Of a stretch of 64,000 nucleotides of DNA, positions 11,276 through 61,187 are shown piece by piece; positions within the stretch are counted from its first letter, which is position 1, and each line of letters opens with the position of its first letter. The position numbers were made by a program, and so were the translations under genes. Under the pieces are notes generated by a model. That model made no database searches. It was not told the DNA's origin and saw only the letters and a program-made list of their open reading frames with translations. The stretch is from Octopus vulgaris (lineage: Eukaryota), in the NCBI GenBank assembly GCA_951406725.2, contig OX597814.1, positions 189,906,001 through 189,970,000 on the forward strand. Reading direction: 5' to 3'.

Positions 11276-11315
11276 CAATATCATATATATATATATACAT
11301 ATGTATGTATGTATG

Positions 11316-11346
<31 letters not shown>

Positions 11347-11402
11347 ATATTATATGCATGTATGTATATACATATATGCATATATATATATATATATATA
11401 TA
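9950..11402. repeat. Large compound (TA)n/(CA)n/(TACA)n microsatellite field (others at about 2850-3280, 15590-15860, 21250-21630, 32415-32680, 48300-49170, 60040-60720)
   Basis: Directly visible. Gives the [12 protein letters not shown] pseudo-ORFs. Confidence 0.97.
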
Positions 11403-11570
11403 TAATAGTTATCGCCAAACTAATATGGCATTCTTATACAAATAAGAATAAAGCTGTCCGCTTATTAGCTCCATGAGGCCATCGCCTTAAGTTAGCTATT
11501 TGATACACAAACTGTATCCATATAACCTTCGAACAAGGGAGGTCAGTCGCTCCACACTACTTGATCGACA

Positions 11571-11611
11571 GCTACAGACACGTTTCGGGGTATTGCCCTT
11601 TTCAATGTAGC
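11571..11611 (-). ncRNA. Hammerhead ribozyme, U3-A8 core variant (left arm copy)
   Basis: Minus strand: GCTACA-TTGAAAA-GGG-CAATA-CCCC-GAAAC-GT-GTC-TGTAGC. Confidence 0.7.
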
Positions 11612-11928
11612 GTAGTCAGACCAGTAGGTGTCGCTTCTGACAATCCCTGTTCGAAGGTTTTATTTACCTAGTTTCAGTGGAATACATCCACTTGTTTTCA
11701 ATAATAGAAATATTAAAATTACTAAGTCTCTCTAAAAGAGAACACCGGAAATTAATAGGGCAGGTTCCCGGATATTAATATTATCGCTTATAAAATAAGA
11801 ATAAAAATAAGCTGTCCGCTTATTAGCTTCCATGAGGCCATCGCCTTAAGTTAGCTATTTGACACAAACTGTATCCATATAACCTTCGAACAGGGATTGT
11901 CAGAAGCGACACCTACTGGTCTGACTAC

Positions 11929-11970
11929 GCTACATTGAAAAGGGGCAATACCCCGAAACGCGTCTGTAGC
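11929..11970 (+). ncRNA. Hammerhead ribozyme, U3-A8 core variant
   Basis: GCTACA-TTGAAAA-GGGG-CAATA-CCCC-GAAAC-GC-GTC-TGTAGC. Perfect 6-bp stem I, 4-bp stem II, palindromic ACGCGT stem III, GUC triplet. Confidence 0.85.
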
Positions 11971-12195
11971 TGTCGATCAAGTAGTGTGGAGCGACTGACC
12001 TCCCTTGTTCGAAGGTTATATGGATACGGTTTGTGTATCAAATAGCTAACTTAAGGCGATGGCCTCATGGAGCTAATAAGCGGACAGCTTTATTCTTATT
12101 TTTATAAGAATGCCATATTAGTATGGCGATAACTATTAATTTCCATGAACGCTGCCGTGTTCTCTTTTAGAGAGACTTAGTAATTTTAATATTTC

Positions 12196-12247
<52 letters not shown>

Positions 12248-21504: not shown

Positions 21505-21785
21505 TATAATAATATATACATACATACATACAAATATATATACATATATATAATAATATATACATACATACAAATATATATATACATATATATAATAATA
21601 TATACATACAAATATATATACATATATATTTTGTAAATGGTTTAAGGACACTCTTAATATGTCTAACTTTCCTACTAGATTTGAGGTATTGAGTAATTTA
21701 TTCCGAAATGAAACTATCAACAACAGTCATATACATATATATACATATATATATATATATATTTAATTAAATTCTATGTCTTTGC

Positions 21786-21870
21786 GCAGCTGAAGACTGC
21801 TCTACATTTTAAATTGATGTAACGATTGCATTGTTCAATTAAATGGAGTTGCATGAAACGATCGTACTGC
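21786..21870 (+). ncRNA. Type I hammerhead motif with long stem II
   Basis: GCAG-CTGAAGA-cTGC..CATTT.AATTGA...TCAATT.AAATG..GCAt-GAAAC-GATC-GTA-CTGC. Palindromic ACGATCGT stem III. First stem II pair is a C-U mismatch. Confidence 0.75.
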
Positions 21871-22006
21871 ATTACCTCTGGATATCCTTGTTGCTTGTTT
21901 TCATTTTAATCACCTTACTTTGAAATTGTATGGATATACCGTACTGAATTCTGGTGCCTCAACTTAAGTACCATATTCATCTCAATCTAAATTTTTGCTG
22001 CACTCA

Positions 22007-22091
<85 letters not shown>

Positions 22092-22123
22092 ATGTATGTA
22101 TGTACATCAAACATGTAAAGTCA

Positions 22124-22290
22124 TTAAAATGGTTTGTCCTCCTGTCTTGGTGCTGGTAACTTAGTGTGTGCCTTAGCCAAGAAGTCAGAAGATTCTTGGT
22201 ATGGCGACCTGGTGAAAGCATTGTCCTTCCATAAGTCCGGTGTGAGGTAGGCATAGGTCTCTGCAATGGCGTTGTAAGTGGCCTTGGCAA
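22124..22290 (-). pseudogene. RPS2: Retro-copied fragment of 40S ribosomal protein S2 (uS5) C-terminus
   Basis: Translates [42 protein letters not shown]...*, matching the conserved RPS2 stretch [37 protein letters not shown]. 5'-truncated against a SINE head. Confidence 0.9.
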
Positions 22291-22383
22291 GGAGTGGCTG
22301 TGTGGTAAGCAGCTTGCTAACCAACCACATGGTTCCGGGTTCAGTCCCACTGCGTGGCATCTTGGGCAAGTGTCTTCTGCTAT
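22290..22383 (+). mobile_element. SINE family B head fragment
   Basis: AGGAGTGGCTGTGTGGTAAG...GGTTCCGGGTTCAGTCCCACTGCGTGGCATCTTGGGCAAGTG. Confidence 0.85.
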
Positions 22384-22827
22384 ATAATAATATATACATA
22401 CATACATACAAATATATATATATATATATATACACATATATATAATAATATATATATACATACATACAAATATATATATATATATACACATATATATAAT
22501 AATATATATATACATAAATACAAATATATATATATATATACACATATATATAATAATATATACATACATACAAATATATATATATATATATATATTTATT
22601 TATTAATCAATATAGGGTGGCAAAAAATTTCGTAGAATTTATTTGCCACCAGCGGCCTAGTGGGAAAAAAATTAAATAGTCATAGACCATTTATAAGTTC
22701 AACATCACAATCAAGGAATGGCCATAATAGGCCATTCACCCACTAGAAATAACAGCCAAAGCTTCAACCGCAAAATAACATTAATTCCGCAAACCAGGAG
22801 AAAATTAAAAAAACATTTACCCTGTAA

Positions 22828-22932
22828 TTTCTTATACGATGCACCGTTTCATCTATTGTTTAATGGTAAACTAACCTGATTAAATTAAATCAAGTCAATC
22901 TTCCATAGGCCGATAGATTCGTCAGTAAGAAA
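22828..22932 (-). ncRNA. Type I hammerhead ribozyme, long stem II (array unit 1)
   Basis: Minus strand: TTTCTTA-CTGACGA-ATCTAT[long hairpin]ATAGAT-GAAAC-GGTGCATC-GTA-TAAGAAA. Perfect 7-bp stem I, 6-bp stem II base, GUA triplet. Confidence 0.9.
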
Positions 22933-23313
22933 CAGCCAAGATCCGAGCAGATATTATCACGAGGCACCTCTGTCCCTGCCTCGGCAATATCTGACCTAAA
23001 ATTTTCAAATCATCGCACTCGCGCCAAATTTATCGGCAGCAAATATAAGCTGCCGATTCCATTACGGAATTAACCAGAAAATTCATAATTAATCAATATA
23101 GGGTGGCAAAAAATTTCGTAGAATTTATTTGCCACCAGCGGCCTAGTGGGAAAAAAATTAAATAGTCATAGACCATTTATAAGTTCAACATCACAATCAA
23201 GGAATGGCCATAATAGGCCATTCACCCACTAGAAATAACAGCCAAAGCTTCAACCGCAAAATAACATTAATTCCGCAAACCAGGAGAAAATTAAAAAAAC
23301 ATTTACCCTGTAA

Positions 23314-23418
23314 TTTCTTATACGATGCACCGTTTCATCTATTGTTTAATGGTAAACTAACCTAATTAAATTAAATCAAGTCAATCTTCCATAGGCCGAT
23401 AGATTCGTCAGTAAGAAA
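23314..23418 (-). ncRNA. Type I hammerhead ribozyme, long stem II (array unit 2)
   Basis: Same as 22828-22932, with one substitution inside the stem II extension. Confidence 0.9.
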
Positions 23419-23907
23419 CAGCCAAGATCCGAGCAGATATTATCACGAGGCACCTCTGTCCCTGCCTCGGCAATATCTGACCTAAAATTTTCAAATCATC
23501 GCACTCGCGCCAAATTTATCGGCAGCAAATATAAGCTGCCGATTCCATTACAGAATTAACCAGAAAATTCATAATTAATCAATATAGGGTGGCAAAAAAT
23601 TTCGTAGAATTTATTTGCCACCAGCGGCCTAGTGGGAAAAAAATTAAATAGTCATAGACCATTTATAAGTTCAACATCACAATCAAGGAATGGCCATAAT
23701 AGGCCATTCACCCACTAGAAATAACAGCCAAAGCTTCAACCGCAAAATAACATTAATTCCGCAAATATAGATGAGTGCAGCAAAAATTTAGATTCAGATG
23801 AATATGGTACTTAAGTTGAGGCACCAGAATTCAGTACGGTATATCCATACAATTTCAAAGTAACGTGATTAAAATGAAAATAAGCAACAAAGATATCCAG
23901 AGGTAAT

Positions 23908-23992
23908 GCAGTACGATCGTTTCATGCAACTCCATTTAATTGAACAATGCAATCGTTACATCAATTTAAAATGTAGAGCAGTCTTCAGCTGC
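23908..23992 (-). ncRNA. Type I hammerhead motif (inverted copy of 21786-21870)
   Basis: Plus strand GCAG-TAC-GATC-GTTTC...TCTTCAG-CTGC. Confidence 0.75.
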
Positions 23993-25428
23993 GCAAAGAC
24001 ATAGAATTTAATTAAATATATATATATATATGTATATATATGTATATGACTGTTGTTGATAGTTTCATTTCGGAATAAATTACTCAATACCTCAAATCTA
24101 GTAGGAAAGTTAGACATATTAAGAGTGTCCTTAAACCATTTACAAAATATTTGTCGCTCTCACTAATAAGTTGTTTTTTTTTTATTTAGATATGCCCAAA
24201 AGAAAAAAAACACTAGCAGAACCTATTTTTCTTACCATCTGTTTTGCTACAAACACTTAAATATTTAATTACTCGGACAAGCAAGACGAACTTCTATAGA
24301 CGAAATAGAAATATCAAGCAAATCTCCATTAAAATTCACTCTATCGACATGAAACTGGAGGAACACATTAGATAATGTAGTTATAGATAACCAATGTACA
24401 AGAGAAAGACGAAATTCTCATGGTTGGAATACCTTTGGTTTATTGGTTAATCCATTAGGATTGACCTGATTCAACACAACAATAATAACACCTCCAGGCT
24501 ACTTATTACAACATATTGATTTCGGATTGAGGGAAGCAAAACCAGTATTTGAGAAAATTAATAATGGCAGGCTCCGGCAATAAATTCTTAATAAAATTTG
24601 TGAAGTCTCTTCCGAAGTGTTGCATGTCCCAAACTCCAGTATTTTGTTCGAAACGCCGAAATTCTTCTCTTCTCACTGAACGCTGCCAATGCACAAGTGT
24701 AGAAAAATGAAAGAGTTTCCTATATTAAGTTGGAAACTTCGGCGTCAAAGTCGCATAGAGAGTCCTTCAGGATATTCGGAGAATGATTTTAGTATGCCCA
24801 CTGCCAAAAGAAAACGTTGTTTTATTGATTTGGGTGTTGGTAGAGATCGACCAAACCGAAAATAGGAACTTACGACGTAAAGTAACACCGTATTTTGACC
24901 AGCATTCCAATGATTCAACTAATAATCAATTTTACAATTAAAATTATAACAATTTCTAACAAATAGTCCATGATAAATTATTAAAGAACGAAACAATTAA
25001 TCGATCATATTTTTGTGAGGTTCTTTATCCTATCCACTTGGAAAGGATGACATATTTTACAAGAAACCTAAAGGGTCATTGCCCTTTTGGAGATGTGAGA
25101 GATTGCAGGTTGCACAAGGGACTATAGCAGCCCTCACATTTTGGATGATGCTTCTATAAAAACTGCATCTTTTGGTTATAATTGAATTGTTTGTAGAGAC
25201 TGGTGATATTCCCCAAGCGTTTTAGATTTTATGTTTTGCTTAAGCCTCGAGGAACAAAGTGTGCAATATTACTTCAGAACATAAAAGGACGCCATTGCAT
25301 TTCGTTAAGCATTTTCCCCATAATGTAGTAATTCGGTCACCATTTTCAATAATTTTGAATAAAATCTATATTTATGTTATCGCCATAATGCCTCAAACAT
25401 GAAGGAAGCTAGTTGAATCATTCTCAGG

Positions 25429-33970: not shown

Positions 33971-34001
<31 letters not shown>

Positions 34002-34077
34002 GCAGCGTGGAAAGTGTTTATAAGCCATTTAAGAAACACACAAAAGCCGTTCGATTCACTTCAACATTTAAGTTTAA

Positions 34078-34127
34078 TTTGTCAAAATATTTTCGTCGCT
34101 AAAATCCGCGACCTGTTCACTGACAAA
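34078..34127 (-). ncRNA. Hammerhead ribozyme, G3-C8 core variant (left arm)
   Basis: Minus strand: TTTGTCA-GTGAACA-G-GTCGC-GGATTTTA-GCGAC-GAAA-ATAT-TT-TGACAAA. Confidence 0.8.
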
Positions 34128-34690
34128 AATCCGTGCTGCATCTGAGAAAGTAACAGTTAGTTCGTCATATATATGTACGTATGTATGTGTGTATGTATGC
34201 ATACACATATGTATGCATGTATGTGTGTATGTATGTATGCATGTACGTACATACGCCTGTGTATGTATGTATGTATGTATGTATGTATGTATGTATGTAT
34301 ATATGTATGTGTGTGTATATGCACGCACATACACACTATAAACATAAAACTATAAACCTGTAGTGATGGATAGATGTAGAGTGACCACTCATCACAATAG
34401 TATCAAATTTCAACTTCCCCCGCCGAAGCCTGGAAGTGATTTACGACCCTCACTCCTAAAACTATACCCTAAAAGTGAGGGTCGTAAATCACTTCCAGGC
34501 TTCGGCGGGGGAAGTTGAAATTTGATATTATTGTGATGAGTGGTCACTCTACATCTATCCATCACTACAGGTTTATAGCTTTATGTTTATAGTGTGTATG
34601 TGCGTGCATATACACACACATACATATATACATACATACATACATACATGCATACACAGGCGTATGTACGTACATGCATACATACATACA

Positions 34691-34724
<34 letters not shown>

Positions 34725-34822
34725 CACATACATGCATACATATGTATATGCGCACATACACACATACATACGTACATATATATGACGAACTAGCTGTTAC
34801 TTTCTCAGATGCAGCACGGATT

Positions 34823-34873
34823 TTTGTCAGTGAACAGGGTCGCGGATTTTAGCGACGAAAATATTTTGACAAA
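34823..34873 (+). ncRNA. Hammerhead ribozyme, G3-C8 core variant (right arm, one extra G)
   Basis: TTTGTCA-GTGAACA-GG-GTCGC-GGATTTTA-GCGAC-GAAA-ATAT-TT-TGACAAA. 7-bp stem I, 5-bp stem II, palindromic AATATT stem III. Confidence 0.75.
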
Positions 34874-35020
34874 TTAAACTTAAATGTTGAAGTGAATCGA
34901 ACGGCTTTTGTGTGTTTCTTAAATGGCTTATAAACACCTTCCACGCTGCAATTGTTTTCGTTTCAGCACACGACCTCAGATCAAATTACTTGCTATGCGA
35001 GTACATCTCCGTAATATATA

Positions 35021-35059
<39 letters not shown>

Positions 35060-35231
35060 AATACTAGGGAATAAATCCAAATTTACAGGGAAAAAATCAG
35101 ATTTAGGATTAAATCCAATTTTATAGTAAAATATTATATAATATTATTAGAGACAAAACCACTATTTTGCAAAACAAACAAGGAAAGACTTAATCAATAC
35201 ATAAAATTTTAATAAAAAGTCAAAAAAACCG

Positions 35232-35274
35232 CCACTACAATTGTTTCTTGTCTTGATCGACAATCTTCAGGTGG
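35232..35274 (-). ncRNA. Type I hammerhead ribozyme (left arm)
   Basis: Exact reverse complement of 36692-36734. Confidence 0.85.
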
Positions 35275-36691
35275 ACTTCCAATCTAAAATATCAATATTT
35301 TAAAATATAAAAATAATAAAATATAAAAGAATCCATTCATAATTTTTTTAAATAATGTTGGTTTACCGCGTGTATATAATTTTTAATTCCATTTATTCTA
35401 TTTCTCCATTCATAATTTTAAGTGAGGTTTGCTTCCATAGCGCGTATTCTTTTTATACATAAGTTATGTTCCTATGGTAACGTAATTTGGTTTGATGTTT
35501 TTAACGGATTAGAATTTAATTTCACTTCATAATTTGAAACTGACTTGAAAGTATGTATATTATTTCTCCTTATGTCATATTGTTATTTTTGATATTCTGG
35601 TTACTTACGATGTATTTTATATATCGTATTATGTGTAATAATGTTGTTTTTCTTTGGAGTGTTTATGTATGTGGGATTGTGTGTGAGTGTGTGCGTATTT
35701 TGGTTGTGTAGTTTGTTTATCTGTATGAATGTGGGTGTGTTAATATTGTTGTATATATCGTGTTTGGTGAGTATGTATATGTATATGGTGTGTGTTTTAC
35801 GTATGTATATTTGTGTGTGAATGTGTTTATGGGCTTGCTATTTAGGTTTGGGGATGTATGTGTTTATTTGTCTGTGTGGGGTTCAGTGGGTTTTTGGAGT
35901 ATATGTTGAGGTTTATATGTATGTATAGGTATGTGTAAGTGGGGTGGGTATTTGTATATGTCGTGGGTGTGTGGTTTACGTGTGTGTATTTGTGTGTGAA
36001 TGTTTAGGTTAGGGGGATTGCTATATAGGTATGTTATAGAGTTTAGTAAAGGGAGATTTTATCATTATATGTTTTTATGAGTTTTGGTTTATCATGGTAG
36101 TTTTGTTAGGGAATTCGTAGTAATTTGTGTCTATTTGCGATGTCTGTTGTTTTATTGCATTATTTCATTCATAATTTTTAAGTAGTGTTCGTTTTACCAA
36201 GTGAATATAATTTTTAATTCCATTTATTCCATTTCTCCGTTCATAATTTTAAGTGATGTCCGTTTCTAGAGCGGGAATGTGGGTTGTATGTGTGTGTGAG
36301 GGAGTATGAATAAGTATTGTGTTGAAGTATTTAGCTATTTTATTTATTTATCGTTGCCTAGACGTTTTTATGTGTATGTATAGGGATATATATATAGGTG
36401 TGTGATTTAGTGTATGTATTTAGATATGGTTATATATAATTAGTTATATGTGTATGGGTGTATATATAGTTTTTTTTTTATATATATTTTATATTTTATA
36501 TTTTATATTTATATTTTATATTTAATTGTTGATAGGTTTATTTTAGTTTATATATTGTTTATATATTGATTATATATGGATTATATATAGGTTATAAATA
36601 GATTATATATTTATATTTTTTCATTAATACTTTAATTATTTTAAAATTATTATTTTTATATTTTAAAATATTGATATTTTAGATTGGAAGT

Positions 36692-36734
36692 CCACCTGAA
36701 GATTGTCGATCAAGACAAGAAACAATTGTAGTGG
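36692..36734 (+). ncRNA. Type I hammerhead ribozyme (right arm)
   Basis: CCAC-CTGAAGA-TTGTC-GATCAA-GACAA-GAAAC-AATT-GTA-GTGG. All three stems intact, palindromic ACAATTGT stem III, GUA triplet. Confidence 0.9.
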
Positions 36735-36819
36735 CGGTTTTTTTGACTTTTTATTAAAATTTTATGTATTGATTAAGTCTTTCCTTGTTTGTTTTGCAAA
36801 ATAGTGGTTTTGTCTCTAA

Positions 36820-36889
<70 letters not shown>

Positions 36890-44870: not shown

Positions 44871-46729
44871 CTTGAATGTAATGTTGCTTATGTTGTGTCC
44901 AGAGGCTTTGATACTTACAGTAAATTCCCCCTCCTATGCCGCTGCTTCTTTTGGCCGCGAAGAGCAGATATGTTTTCAAATTGTTATTTGATGTTTTAGA
45001 TACAAGAAAGCGTGAAAAGTATTTTCTTGGTTTTATTTTCATGGCCAGAATTGTATTTGGACCACTTATAAATCCACCATGTACACGGATATTTCAACAA
45101 AAATGTTTCTGATTTTTTTAAATAGTTCCATAATAGTTCCATTTTCTCACAACCTAATTATGCCATACATGGCGTTCCGATACACGATCAACAAACCACG
45201 GAAATATATCAATACTCTCTCTTTTACTCTTTTACTTGTTTCAGTCATTTGACTGCGGCCATGCTGGAGCACCGCCTTTTAATCGAGCAACTCAACCCCG
45301 GGACTTATTCATTGTAAGCCTAGTACTTATTCTATCGATCTCTTTTGTCGAACCGCTAAGTGACGGGGACATAAACACACCAGCATCGGTTGTCAAGCAA
45401 TGCTAGGGGACAAACACAAACATACACGCACACACACACATATATATATATACATATATACGACGGGCTTCTTTCAGCTTCCATCTACCAAATCCACTCA
45501 TAAGGCTTTGGTCGGCCCGAGGCTATAGTAGAAGACACTTGCCCAAGGTGCCACGCAGTGGGACTGAACCCGGAACCATGTGGTTGGTAAGCAAGCTACT
45601 TACCACACAGCCACTCCTGCACCTATCAATGGTGCAAAAGCTAAAACAAATATTATTGAACTCAGATATCTGTCACTCAAGAACCTGAAATAAGGAATAG
45701 TGACATTGCAGACACAGAAAATAGGAAATTCTAGGCAAGCTTCCCAACAACAAAAGATATTTTCCTACATGCTCGTACTTTGTAAAATGAAATCGTTCCA
45801 ATGATCAACTTCAATCATGTGTTTTCTGGATAATAATCATTTCACAAAGAAGACAAATCATTGGAAACATTTTGTATCAAGAAAGGATATCTCTCTGTCA
45901 GAATATTTTGCACAGAAATGTGAGAGAAGAAAAATTACATACGTGTGCCTTTCAATGATCATGGACGCTCTCCTACAGTATTCCAAGATGCAACTAGAAA
46001 CAACCTTTAAAGGCATATACAACTAAAGCGTTTACTTTGAAGGTGTATTAAGGTGTATAAATACACATGAAGGTGTATTAAGCCACAAGCGTTGCCTTCA
46101 AAACTAAGAGCGGAATAAAAGTACAAGAATAAAAGTATCAAGAAAGGATATCTCTCTGTCAGAATATTTTGCACAGAAATGTGAGAGAAGAAAAATTACA
46201 TACGTGTGCCTTTCAAAGGTCATGGAAGCTATCCTTCAGTATTCCAAGATGCAACTAGAAACAGAATTACCTAGAATTCTTGCCTAGAATTTCCTATTTT
46301 CTGTGTCTGCAATGTCACTATTCCTTATTTCAGGTTCTTGAGTGACAGATATCTGAGTTCAATAATATTTGTTTTAGCTTTTACACTATTGATATATTTC
46401 CGTGGTTTGTTGATCGTGTATCGGAACGCCATGTATGGCATAATTAGGTTGTGAGAAAATGGAACTATTATGGAACTATTTAAAAAATCAGAAACATTTT
46501 TGTTGAAATATCCGTGTACATGGTGGATTTATAAGTGGTCCAAATACAATTCTGGCCATGAAAATAAAACCAAGAAAATACTTTTCACGCTTTCTTGTAT
46601 CTAAAACGTCAAATAACAATTTGAAAACATATCTGCTCTTCGCGGCCAAAAGAAGCAGCGGCAGAGGAGGGGGAATTTACTGTAAGTATCAAAGCCTCTG
46701 GACGCAACAGAAGCAACATTACATTCAAG
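44871..46729. repeat. Long inverted repeat (44871-45739 including a SINE, versus 46279-46729) with an internal direct repeat
   Basis: The same pseudo-ORF MKIKPRKYFSRF occurs on both strands. The spacer has a direct repeat of about 128 bp at 45874 and 46135. Confidence 0.9.
45214..45623 (-). mobile_element. SINE family B with 7-bp target-site duplication TATCAAT
   Basis: TATCAAT at 45207-45213 and 45624-45630. Empty site present in the opposite arm (about 46388-46394). Confidence 0.92.
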
Positions 46730-55219: not shown

Positions 55220-55256
<37 letters not shown>

Positions 55257-55359
55257 TCGAAACGTAAAAGACTTTTAACTTTTTTTCCAGAGCGTTAAAA
55301 GACTACACCTGCTTGTTGTTCGTACACCTGTCTTCGTCTTTTGTTTTTCTGTAAATTTG

Positions 55360-55397
<38 letters not shown>

Positions 55398-55461
55398 CAA
55401 GACAGGTGTACGAACAACAAGCAGGTGTAGTCGTTTAATGCTCTGGAAAAAAAGGTAAAAG

Positions 55462-55499
55462 CCTTTTACGTTTCGAGCATACGCTTTTCGACAGAAAGG
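55462..55499 (-). ncRNA. Minimal hammerhead-like motif, CUGUCGA core, in the 3' region of a GIY-YIG PLE relic
   Basis: Minus strand: CCTTT-CTGTCGA-A-AAGC-GTAT-GCTC-GAAAC-GTA-AAAGG. Partial inverted copy at about 55255-55345. Confidence 0.7.
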
Positions 55500-56235: not shown

Positions 56236-56590
56236 GTTGGTGTCAGATGAAGAGAGGAGGTGAGTTAAGTCAATATGGCGCAAAGGAACGAAGAGAGATT
56301 AATTTCTGTTCACGGCGAAGGTGGAAGTCCAGGTGGCCCCTGTGCAGAGACAGTCCGAATACAGACAAATGTTGAAGCGAATGACCGGTAGAGCGGACAT
56401 GACACGACACCGGGGTATAATTGCTGAGTATGATGTCTCGGAGGTGCTCCACGAAACGGTCGGTCAAGCAACGTCCCGTTTGACCAATGTACAGAGAAGG
56501 ACAGAGCAGGCGATGCAGTAAATAACATAGCTAGCGATGCAGGTAAAGGAGTCAGCGACGTGATAGGGATGGTGATGTTTGTCTGTGATG
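56236..56590 (-). pseudogene. Penelope-like element GIY-YIG endonuclease relic (Neptune-type)
   Basis: DSFTCIASYVIYCIAC, frameshift, then YIGQTGRCLTDRFVEHLRDI....PVSCH.....HS......G...........RREQKLI. Confidence 0.9.
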
Positions 56591-60285: not shown

Positions 60286-60357
60286 GCCGTGATCATCTAG
60301 TGGTTAGGACCCCACGTTGTGGCCGTGCTAACCCAGGTTCGAATCCTGGTCACGGCA
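60286..60357 (+). tRNA. tRNA-His(GTG), probably a pseudogene or variant
   Basis: GCCGTGATCATCTAGTGGTTAGGACCCCACGTTGTGGCCGTGCTAACCCAGGTTCGAATCCTGGTCACGGCA. Perfect acceptor and T stems. One mismatch each in the D stem (A-C) and anticodon stem (C-C). No T4 terminator immediately downstream. Confidence 0.88.
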
Positions 60358-60667: not shown

Positions 60668-61071
60668 TTAGACGAACATATATACATGCATGCATACATA
60701 CATACCTCTATGCATCACAAACATGTAATACCCAAAAGTATATCAACCATAAAAACATTAATTTCAATGAATTGAACACAAGCCCAAAATATACGGGTGA
60801 AACTAAATATGTAACCTTGCGTCTATTCTGCTGACCAAAAACTTTAATTATCTAAATTGCCTTGATGACGTTCACTATGAGACAGTGGCTAACAGGGGAT
60901 CAAGGGGCGCAACCGCTCCTCACGATCCTATCTTTTAAAATTGGCGTCTGTTCGACAATTATTTTTTAACTCTTTAGTTACCTACAGCAGTAGTTGTAAG
61001 TTTCATACGTAATGACATAGTTACTGAATCATTAAATTAATGAATATAATGTATATTATAATTAGAGATAT

Positions 61072-61187
61072 TTTGCCAAATCACGTTGAAAACGCCAGTT
61101 CTCGTTCGATCACCGAAGTTAAGCAACGTTCGAGCCTAGTTAGTTATTAGATTGGTGACCGCTTGGGAAACCGAGGTGCAGTAAACA
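61072..61187 (+). rRNA. 5S rRNA-like copy (likely pseudogene)
   Basis: GCCAAATCACGTTGAAAACGCCAGTTCTCGTTCGATCACCGAAGTTAAGCAACG..GAGCC..GTTAGT..GGTGACCGCTTGGGAA..GGTGCAGTAAACA followed by T6. The first few 5' nucleotides do not pair with the 3' end. Confidence 0.88.

What the first reader, a model, noticed from the sequence alone, without database searches (positions are those of the whole stretch)
34078..34873. G3-C8 inverted-pair hammerhead core in a giant near-perfect palindrome
The core GTGAACA swaps the C3-G8 pair to G3-C8 while keeping U4 G5 A6 A9, GAAA, a 7-bp stem I, a 5-bp stem II and a palindromic AATATT stem III (UUU triplet). The C3G/G8C double mutant is known to rescue activity in vitro, but natural examples are rare. 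With the C-G and U-A families, three of the four Watson-Crick solutions occur in one 64-kb window.
Basis: partly seen in the sequence, partly recalled or inferred. Interest (0 to 1): 0.78.

Follow-up and report, generated by a model that had tools for sequence, protein, structure and literature searches.

The report
Flipped-core hammerhead in octopus retrotransposon
The palindrome is an ordinary head-to-head insertion of a Penelope-like retrotransposon, but every family of this lineage carries a hammerhead RNA motif whose paired core letters are swapped (G3-C8 instead of C3-G8), a natural version of a laboratory rescue mutant that likely still cuts RNA weakly, which is untested.

Summary
Observation confirmed. 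The 34 kb palindrome is two 5'-truncated 3' ends of an endonuclease-bearing Penelope-like element (PLE) joined head to head, a routine PLE insertion form (8 of 14 longer copies). Its pseudo-LTR hammerhead has G3-C8 as the family state: 2,077 copies, 98 of 100 listed G3-C8, plus an older G3-C8 subfamily (71 copies). Relatives with the same stems carry C3-G8 or U3-A8 at the same place (11 of 11 Watson-Crick; hand-picked), so the flip is a compensatory change that likely happened once. The palindrome cannot supply the dimer partner (opposite strands); a complete copy with two same-strand hammerheads exists. 519 copies begin 23 nt before G3, 83 of 100 with an extra G, likely a copied cap: the ribozyme sits just behind the transcription start and uncut RNA is what gets inserted. 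Cleavage is untested; decayed relatives include U3-G8 and C3-A8. I found no natural G3-C8 in print, but five key papers were unavailable; this scan noted G3-C8 in two other genomes' PLE tails. New variant of a known kind.

The parts
33998..34473 (-). Left arm: 5'-truncated PLE 3' end (3' UTR microsatellite plus pseudo-LTR), lacking the tail, abutting (TA)n
34474..35015 (+). Right arm: 5'-truncated PLE 3' end with the full tail, followed by (TA)n
34078..34127 (-). Family-typical type I hammerhead, G3 at 34120, C8 at 34115, unpaired G at 34113, predicted cut between 34085 and 34084
34823..34873 (+). Second hammerhead copy, G3 at 34830, C8 at 34835, with a private second unpaired G (34837-34838)
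34143..34143 (-). Inferred transcription start of the pseudo-LTR (left arm)
   Evidence: copies elsewhere begin exactly here with an extra G
34807..34807 (+). Inferred transcription start of the pseudo-LTR (right arm)
34455..34473 (-). 19-nt spacer: element sequence present only in the left arm, not a foreign loop
34954..35015 (+). PLE tail present on one arm only; its last 21 nt (34995-35015) are the first seven codons of the element's ORF

Best explanation
The locus is a head-to-head, 5'-truncated insertion of a Penelope-like element whose pseudo-LTR hammerhead has G3 and C8 fixed in the family, and this flipped pair likely keeps the catalytic fold so that the RNA would cut weakly, and likely only as a dimer or with the element's protein. 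Shown: parent element (RT, zinc-finger linker, GIY-YIG), copy number, G3-C8 fixation in young and old subfamilies, C3-G8 and U3-A8 in relatives, a complete element with two same-strand hammerheads 4,261 bp apart. Inferred: transcription starts 23 nt before G3, so the motif lies in the 5' UTR about 125 nt ahead of the start codon's tail region; the two hammerheads of a read-through transcript pair through AATATT and could release a unit-length RNA or remove the cap; reverse transcription mostly uses uncut capped RNA, starts at the tail, and restarts on the opposite strand to give the inverted arm. The flip likely arose once from C3-G8 through a mismatched intermediate, since two transversions are needed and no wobble route exists. 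Confidence by step: PLE inverted insertion 0.97, hammerhead descent with a real 3-8 pair 0.9, measurable cleavage 0.6.
For: Parent ORF and domains. 2,077 copies against 0 control, 98 of 100 listed G3-C8. Older subfamily, 71 against 0, 58-70% identical to the young family over about 200 nt, with different N7, loop II, a 4-nt instead of 6-nt palindrome and a G-C for U-A change in stem I, yet the same G3-C8. Sister family (56% amino-acid identity) has C3-G8 with paired changes in stems I and II. Across 11 families: 6 C-G, 4 U-A, 1 G-C, G10.1-C11.1 and the unpaired G in 11 of 11, permutation p = 3e-4 uncorrected for kinship. G3-C8 copies form one clade (support 98). Runs of three other coded organisms show no variant at 5% or more listed at G3 or C8 while flanks and loop II vary. 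Complete element L285. Double-hammerhead fold -27.2 kcal/mol against 2 x -7.9 for the one-pair monomer. C3G/G8C partly rescues a PLE hammerhead, protein-assisted (PMC11167929).
Against: No cleavage data. No pile-up of copies starting at the cut site: 96 of 100 listed copies keep sequence upstream of it (that filter drops some truncated copies), while 519 start at the cap site. The all-AU stem III is weak (-0.2 kcal/mol) and an alternative dimer folds better (-31.3 against -27.2). Among 100 listed non-G3, non-C8 relatives in this genome my hand tally is 49 C-G, 19 U-G, 14 C-A, 11 U-A, 2 A-U, 5 other; most non-pairs are one transition from a pair in old copies, but about 10 rows look like a U3-G8 family, and the sister family has C at position 9, so constraint in this clade is not strict. 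The 11 motifs were picked by eye as the best-folding motif behind each ORF; 12 of 21 metagenome loci examined gave none that I counted. Hammerhead mutants do not impair insertion in vitro (PMC11167929).
Confidence: 0.62

Rival explanations
1. The fold, including the 3-8 pair, is kept for a non-cutting role, such as a cap-proximal structure bound by the element's protein or controlling translation; catalysis is negligible.
For: Uncut capped RNA is the visible template; weak stem III; relatives with C9 or a possible U3-G8; cleavage is dispensable for insertion in vitro and no reads ended at the cut site in the anole element (PMC11167929).
Against: G5, A6, G12, A13, A14, the NUH triplet and a palindromic stem III of two different lengths are all kept; the 3-8 pair is a feature of the catalytic conformation (PMC8495972 passage; otherwise recalled).
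Confidence: 0.25
2. G3 and C8 are two unrelated changes fixed in a lineage whose ribozyme was already dead; the stretch is conserved as DNA because it lies just downstream of the transcription start, in an internal promoter.
For: The motif spans +17 to +66 from the inferred start; Penelope has an internal promoter in this region (PMC8557442 passage); only one origin of G3-C8 is seen, so it is one event.
Against: After the flip the lineage changed a stem I pair on both sides and changed palindrome length while staying palindromic; loop II varies freely while stems do not.
Confidence: 0.11
3. The palindrome is an assembly artefact or a foldback DNA transposon and the motif is a chance match.
For: The genome is rich in TA microsatellites and inverted repeats.
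Against: Arms differ by 16 substitutions and 4 gaps; the tail is on one arm only here and in 20 of 20 short pairs; arm length varies between loci; the sequence continues into an RT-endonuclease ORF; 0 motifs in shuffles.
Confidence: 0.02

Closest known systems
Minimal type I hammerheads of metazoan Penelope-like elements (Cervera and de la Pena 2014, PMC4209133; parts 1-2 of 4 and supplement passages read)
   Same: Position in the pseudo-LTR, unpaired nucleotide between 9 and 10.1, G10.1-C11.1, palindromic stem III, pairs on opposite strands 100-700 bp apart, covariation at 3-8 (U3-A8 reported)
   Different: G3-C8 core, which their CUGANGA consensus and U3-A8 descriptor would miss; 7-bp stem I; no cephalopod example in the text I saw
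Poseidon PAc hammerhead and its engineered C3G/G8C mutant (Frangieh et al. 2024, PMC11167929; parts 1-2 of 4 read)
   Same: Hammerhead at the pseudo-LTR/ORF junction, tail overlapping the ORF start, uncut RNA as main template, double mutant partly active
   Different: There the flip is engineered; here it is the fixed natural state of thousands of copies, in an element with a Nematis-type linker
Inverted 5'-truncated PLE insertions with a one-sided tail (Craig et al. 2021, PMC8557442; passages and supplement part 54 read)
   Same: Head-to-head truncated copy, tail on one end, (TA)n target
   Different: Tail here is about 60 nt rather than 30-40; junctions cluster at the inferred cap site
Natural hammerhead core variants (Perreault et al. 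2011, PMC3088659; passages read)
   Same: Natural covariation of the 3-8 pair
   Different: The passage reports U3-A8 only

Membership tests
PLE minimal type I hammerhead | Lies in the pseudo-LTR of a PLE | tested here: met
PLE minimal type I hammerhead | Type I topology with stems I and II | tested here: met
   pair probabilities 0.68-1.0 in the RNA starting at the inferred cap site
PLE minimal type I hammerhead | Literal CUGANGA core | tested here: not met
   core is GUGAACA; hence filed as a variant; no Rfam hammerhead match
PLE minimal type I hammerhead | Watson-Crick pair between positions 3 and 8 | tested here: met
   G-C here; C-G or U-A in 10 related families
PLE minimal type I hammerhead | U4 G5 A6 A9, G12 A13 A14, A15.1-U16.1, NUH triplet | tested here: met
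PLE minimal type I hammerhead | Unpaired nucleotide between 9 and 10.1; G10.1-C11.1 | tested here: met
   one G in the family, two in the right arm
PLE minimal type I hammerhead | Palindromic stem III allowing a dimer, and two same-strand copies available | tested here: met
   AATATT; complete element L285; not met by this palindrome itself
PLE minimal type I hammerhead | Site-specific self-cleavage | not testable with these tools
   genomic truncation proxy gave no pile-up at the cut site; only contig-type runs available
Endonuclease-bearing Penelope-like element | Single ORF with RT and C-terminal GIY-YIG endonuclease with CCHH | tested here: met
   1,025-residue open frame in L057; PF01541 just above cut-off; Pfam gave no RT hit, RT motifs read from the sequence
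Endonuclease-bearing Penelope-like element | Pseudo-LTRs, inverted truncated copy, one-sided tail, microsatellite target | tested here: met
Nematis clade of PLEs | Short CX2-5CxxC linker before GIY | tested here: met
   spacing matches the Nematis rows, not Neptune, of Fig. S2 in PMC8557442
Nematis clade of PLEs | Placement in the RT tree with reference Nematis elements | not tested
   no reference sequences in hand; tree holds only unnamed relatives
Non-LTR retrozyme | Non-coding tandem repeat with a hammerhead in consecutive units | tested here: not met
   inverted, and part of a coding element; definition from bioRxiv 10.64898/2026.07.22.740005 part 1
Foldback or MITE DNA transposon | Fixed terminal inverted repeats defining both ends | tested here: not met
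   arm length and junction vary between loci, ends are asymmetric

The most novel reading that the evidence does not exclude
This is the first described natural, high-copy, catalytically active G3-C8 hammerhead in an animal: a retrotransposon lineage crossed a two-transversion valley in a ribozyme's tertiary pair and kept the flipped pair through several expansions, and its thousands of copies record that the ribozyme sits just behind the cap and acts as a conditional switch (dimer- or protein-triggered decapping or unit release) rather than as a step of insertion.
Probability: 0.4. Interest if true: 0.66.

Novelty: new variant of a known kind. Interest (0 to 1): 0.5.

Why it matters
It gives natural, phylogenetic support for the purine-pyrimidine flip of the hammerhead's 3-8 tertiary pair, so far seen by me only as an engineered rescue, with near-identical C3-G8 relatives as built-in controls. 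Searches that fix CUGANGA or add only U3-A8 miss over 2,000 copies in this genome, so PLEs scored as lacking a hammerhead may need rechecking. The cap-site footprint and the absence of cut-site truncations make the open question of what PLE hammerheads do directly testable in one family. The palindrome itself is ordinary.

Tried and rejected
Rfam: no hammerhead among the 150 of 212 window hits shown or the 4 local hits. Other G3-C8 families: one pattern gave 72 hits against 15 control, but they were a tRNA-SINE-like repeat (name recalled) and repeats without stems; a short-stem-III pattern gave 85 against 102 control; only (612 against 196) revealed the older subfamily. A 200-kb random sample gave 9 motifs, 8 C-G and 1 G-C, 0 in 10 shuffles. 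Viral contigs held no relative. I first read the sequence before the motif as a 3' splice site; rejected because copies begin two bases before it and with an extra G after unrelated flanks. The truncation pattern was mis-registered and passed full copies; I used it only as a sample. Whether the two arms came from one RNA: they differ at 2 of 127 and 2 plus one gap of 177 positions, the nearest other copy at 2 of 127: inconclusive. Expression: no RNA holder listed; contigs of four runs guessed to be RNA showed no usable ends. The careful protein tree did not finish; the quick tree is used. Literature: 'G3-C8' 1 paper, engineered; 'G3C8' 0; motif and 'C3G G8C' terms 0; C3G plus G8C listing gave only engineered cases among those opened; hammerhead plus cephalopod plus Penelope 1 paper. 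Not held: PMC5785218, PMC1986816, PMC3334697, PMC3004062, PMC2271363; file 1 of the PMC4209133 supplement was not searched. Any of these may already list a natural G3-C8.

Full report
1. Observation. On the minus strand, 34127-34078 reads: 7-nt stem I strand, GTGAACA, one unpaired G, 5-bp stem II with an 8-nt loop, GAAA, the palindrome AATATT counted from A15.1, U17 and the stem I partner. The plus-strand copy (34823-34873) has a second unpaired G found in no other of the 33 motifs printed. Stems I and II are the predicted fold (z = -3.4). A descriptor free at positions 3, 7 and 8 finds C3-G8 (5766+), U3-A8 (11935+) and G3-C8 (34120-) in the window and nothing in 20 shuffled windows. The arms are 33998-34454 and 34474-34953 with 441 matches, 16 mismatches and 4 gaps. 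Rfam has no match.

2. What the DNA is. The own genome (2.8 Gb) holds the right arm's end in many near-identical copies. They share a 3' end followed by (TA)n and are cut at variable 5' points. Walking upstream leads through a microsatellite-rich 3' UTR into an ORF with RT motifs, a CX3CxxC linker and a GIY-YIG endonuclease; L057 has a 1,025-residue open frame. The linker spacing is that of the Nematis rows in Fig. S2 of PMC8557442; clade placement by tree was not tested. The best protein match (58%) is labelled Octopus vulgaris by its source, so I take the host to be an octopus. The last 21 nt of the tail are the ORF's first seven codons, and L285 is a complete element with an intact G3-C8 motif in both pseudo-LTRs, same strand, 4,261 bp apart.

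3. The palindrome is ordinary. 8 of 14 longer copies have an inverted truncated copy upstream; 20 of 20 short inverted pairs carry the tail on one arm only, as here. PMC8557442 describes this form and PMC4209133 notes hammerhead pairs on opposite strands 100-700 bp apart. The window's U3-A8 family forms the same kind of pair. Because the motifs are on opposite strands, a read-through RNA folds as one long hairpin (89% and 94% of bases paired) with each motif bound to its antisense copy. This locus is therefore unlikely to be an active dimer.

4. G3-C8 is a lineage state. With positions 3, 7 and 8 free, 2,077 copies match against 0 for the control, and 98 of the 100 listed are G3-C8; the 3' part occurs about 5,300 times (5,312 against 54). 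An older subfamily (71 against 0; that pattern fixed G3 and C8) is 58-70% identical over about 200 nt and differs in N7, loop II, palindrome length (AATT) and one stem I pair changed on both sides. Runs of three other coded organisms show no listed variant at 5% or more at G3 or C8, while loop II and the flanks vary (one row not shown).

5. Relatives supply the covariation. The sister family (56% amino-acid identity) has C3-G8 at the same place, with paired changes in stems I and II and C at position 9. Of 21 metagenome loci with related ORFs examined, 9 had a clear motif behind the ORF, 1 was degenerate and 11 gave none that I counted, several ending soon after the ORF. With the two own-genome families the 11 give 6 C-G, 4 U-A and 1 G-C; G10.1-C11.1 and the unpaired G are in all 11; permutation p = 3e-4, not corrected for kinship or for my choice by eye. 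In the quick protein tree the focal element groups with the C3-G8 sister (100) inside further C3-G8 relatives (92); in a DNA tree young and old G3-C8 copies form one clade (98). The flip is thus likely derived and single. It needs two transversions with no wobble intermediate (inference), which would explain its rarity. Against strict constraint: 512 non-G3, non-C8 relatives with the same stems exist (0 control), and my hand tally of the 100 listed is 49 C-G, 19 U-G, 14 C-A, 11 U-A, 2 A-U and 5 other. These are old decaying copies, but about 10 rows look like a U3-G8 family.

6. Where the motif sits in the RNA. Junctions of short inverted pairs cluster just upstream of stem I. 519 copies begin exactly at one A with non-element sequence before it, and 83 of 100 listed have G directly in front where the element has C (about 20% expected, p about 1e-40). 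An extra 5' G is the recalled mark of reverse transcriptase copying the cap, so this A (34143 minus, 34807 plus) is likely the transcription start; G3 is +24 and the cut would follow +59. These copies were made from uncut RNA. By contrast 96 of 100 listed copies keep sequence upstream of the cut site, and only one locus has junctions near it (whose filter drops some truncated copies). This matches the anole element, where uncut RNA is the main template, cleavage needs the protein, and C3G/G8C partly rescues (PMC11167929). The window's arms reach about 330-350 nt upstream of this start, so they came from the 3' end of a longer transcript.

7. Mechanism. Best reading (0.62): a weak, conditional ribozyme. 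A transcript from the 5' pseudo-LTR reads through both motifs; they pair through AATATT (double hammerhead -27.2 kcal/mol against 2 x -7.9 for the one-pair monomer, though another dimer reaches -31.3) and cut after U17, removing the cap or releasing a unit-length RNA. Rivals: fold kept for a non-cutting role (0.25); chance fixation with promoter-level conservation (0.11); artefact (0.02). Cleavage, the dimer and the cap assignment are inferred; the element, copy numbers, core states and junction positions are shown.

8. Novelty. PLE hammerheads, the unpaired nucleotide, dimer dependence, U3-A8 and the engineered C3G/G8C rescue are in print. My searches found G3-C8 only as an engineered variant, but five central papers were not held and one supplement file was not searched, so prior report is not excluded. 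This scan's notes list G3-C8 candidates in PLE tails of two other genomes (unchecked AI notes, not tested here); none for this genome or sequence. Papers seen: PMC4209133 and PMC11167929 parts 1-2 of 4; bioRxiv 10.64898/2026.07.22.740005 part 1 of 5; passages of PMC8557442, PMC3088659, PMC6765202, PMC3884650, PMC8495972; supplement passages of PMC4209133 and PMC8557442.

9. Verdict. Real, well supported as a natural core variant, in an ordinary insertion. New variant of a known kind; interest 0.5.

Noticed in passing
window 11287-12245: Second head-to-head insertion, with U3-A8 hammerheads at 11605 (-) and 11935 (+)
   Followed up: partly
window 5766 (+), 3505 (-), 54355 (-), 55000 (+): Further C3-G8 hammerhead-like motifs of other families; the last two face away from each other
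   Followed up: no
window 54536 (+): Weak A3-U8 look-alike (3-bp stem II, AT-only stem I); probably chance, so the fourth pairing is not shown
   Followed up: no
window 61068-61187 and 60286-60357: 5S rRNA-like (65.9 bits) and tRNA-like (48.6 bits) matches above Rfam's gathering scores
   Followed up: no
window 21626-24150, 35131-36836, 44871-46729, 55253-55480: Other long inverted repeats, three of them 97-99% identical between arms
   Followed up: no
window 56276-56500 (-): Weak remnant of a GIY-YIG-like endonuclease frame (tblastn E 7.6e-4)
   Followed up: no
L114:2019-2067 and L157:2490-2538: Two related PLE hammerheads with C instead of A at position 9, one on C3-G8 and one on U3-A8
   Followed up: partly
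L156:4966-5017: Related PLE hammerhead with the 15.1-16.1 pair reversed (U-A) inside a palindrome
   Followed up: no
L259 and about 10 rows: Possible family with a U3-G8 wobble core and the same stems
   Followed up: no
L061:2307-4513 (G000:C1 near 20.00 Mb): Array of about 355-bp units each with a canonical C3-G8 hammerhead, five on one strand and two inverted; retrozyme-like
   Followed up: no
L084, L087, L089 and many rows: A tRNA-SINE-like repeat (identity recalled) matches GTGANCA...CGAAA patterns without forming the stems: a false-positive source for G3-C8 searches
   Followed up: yes
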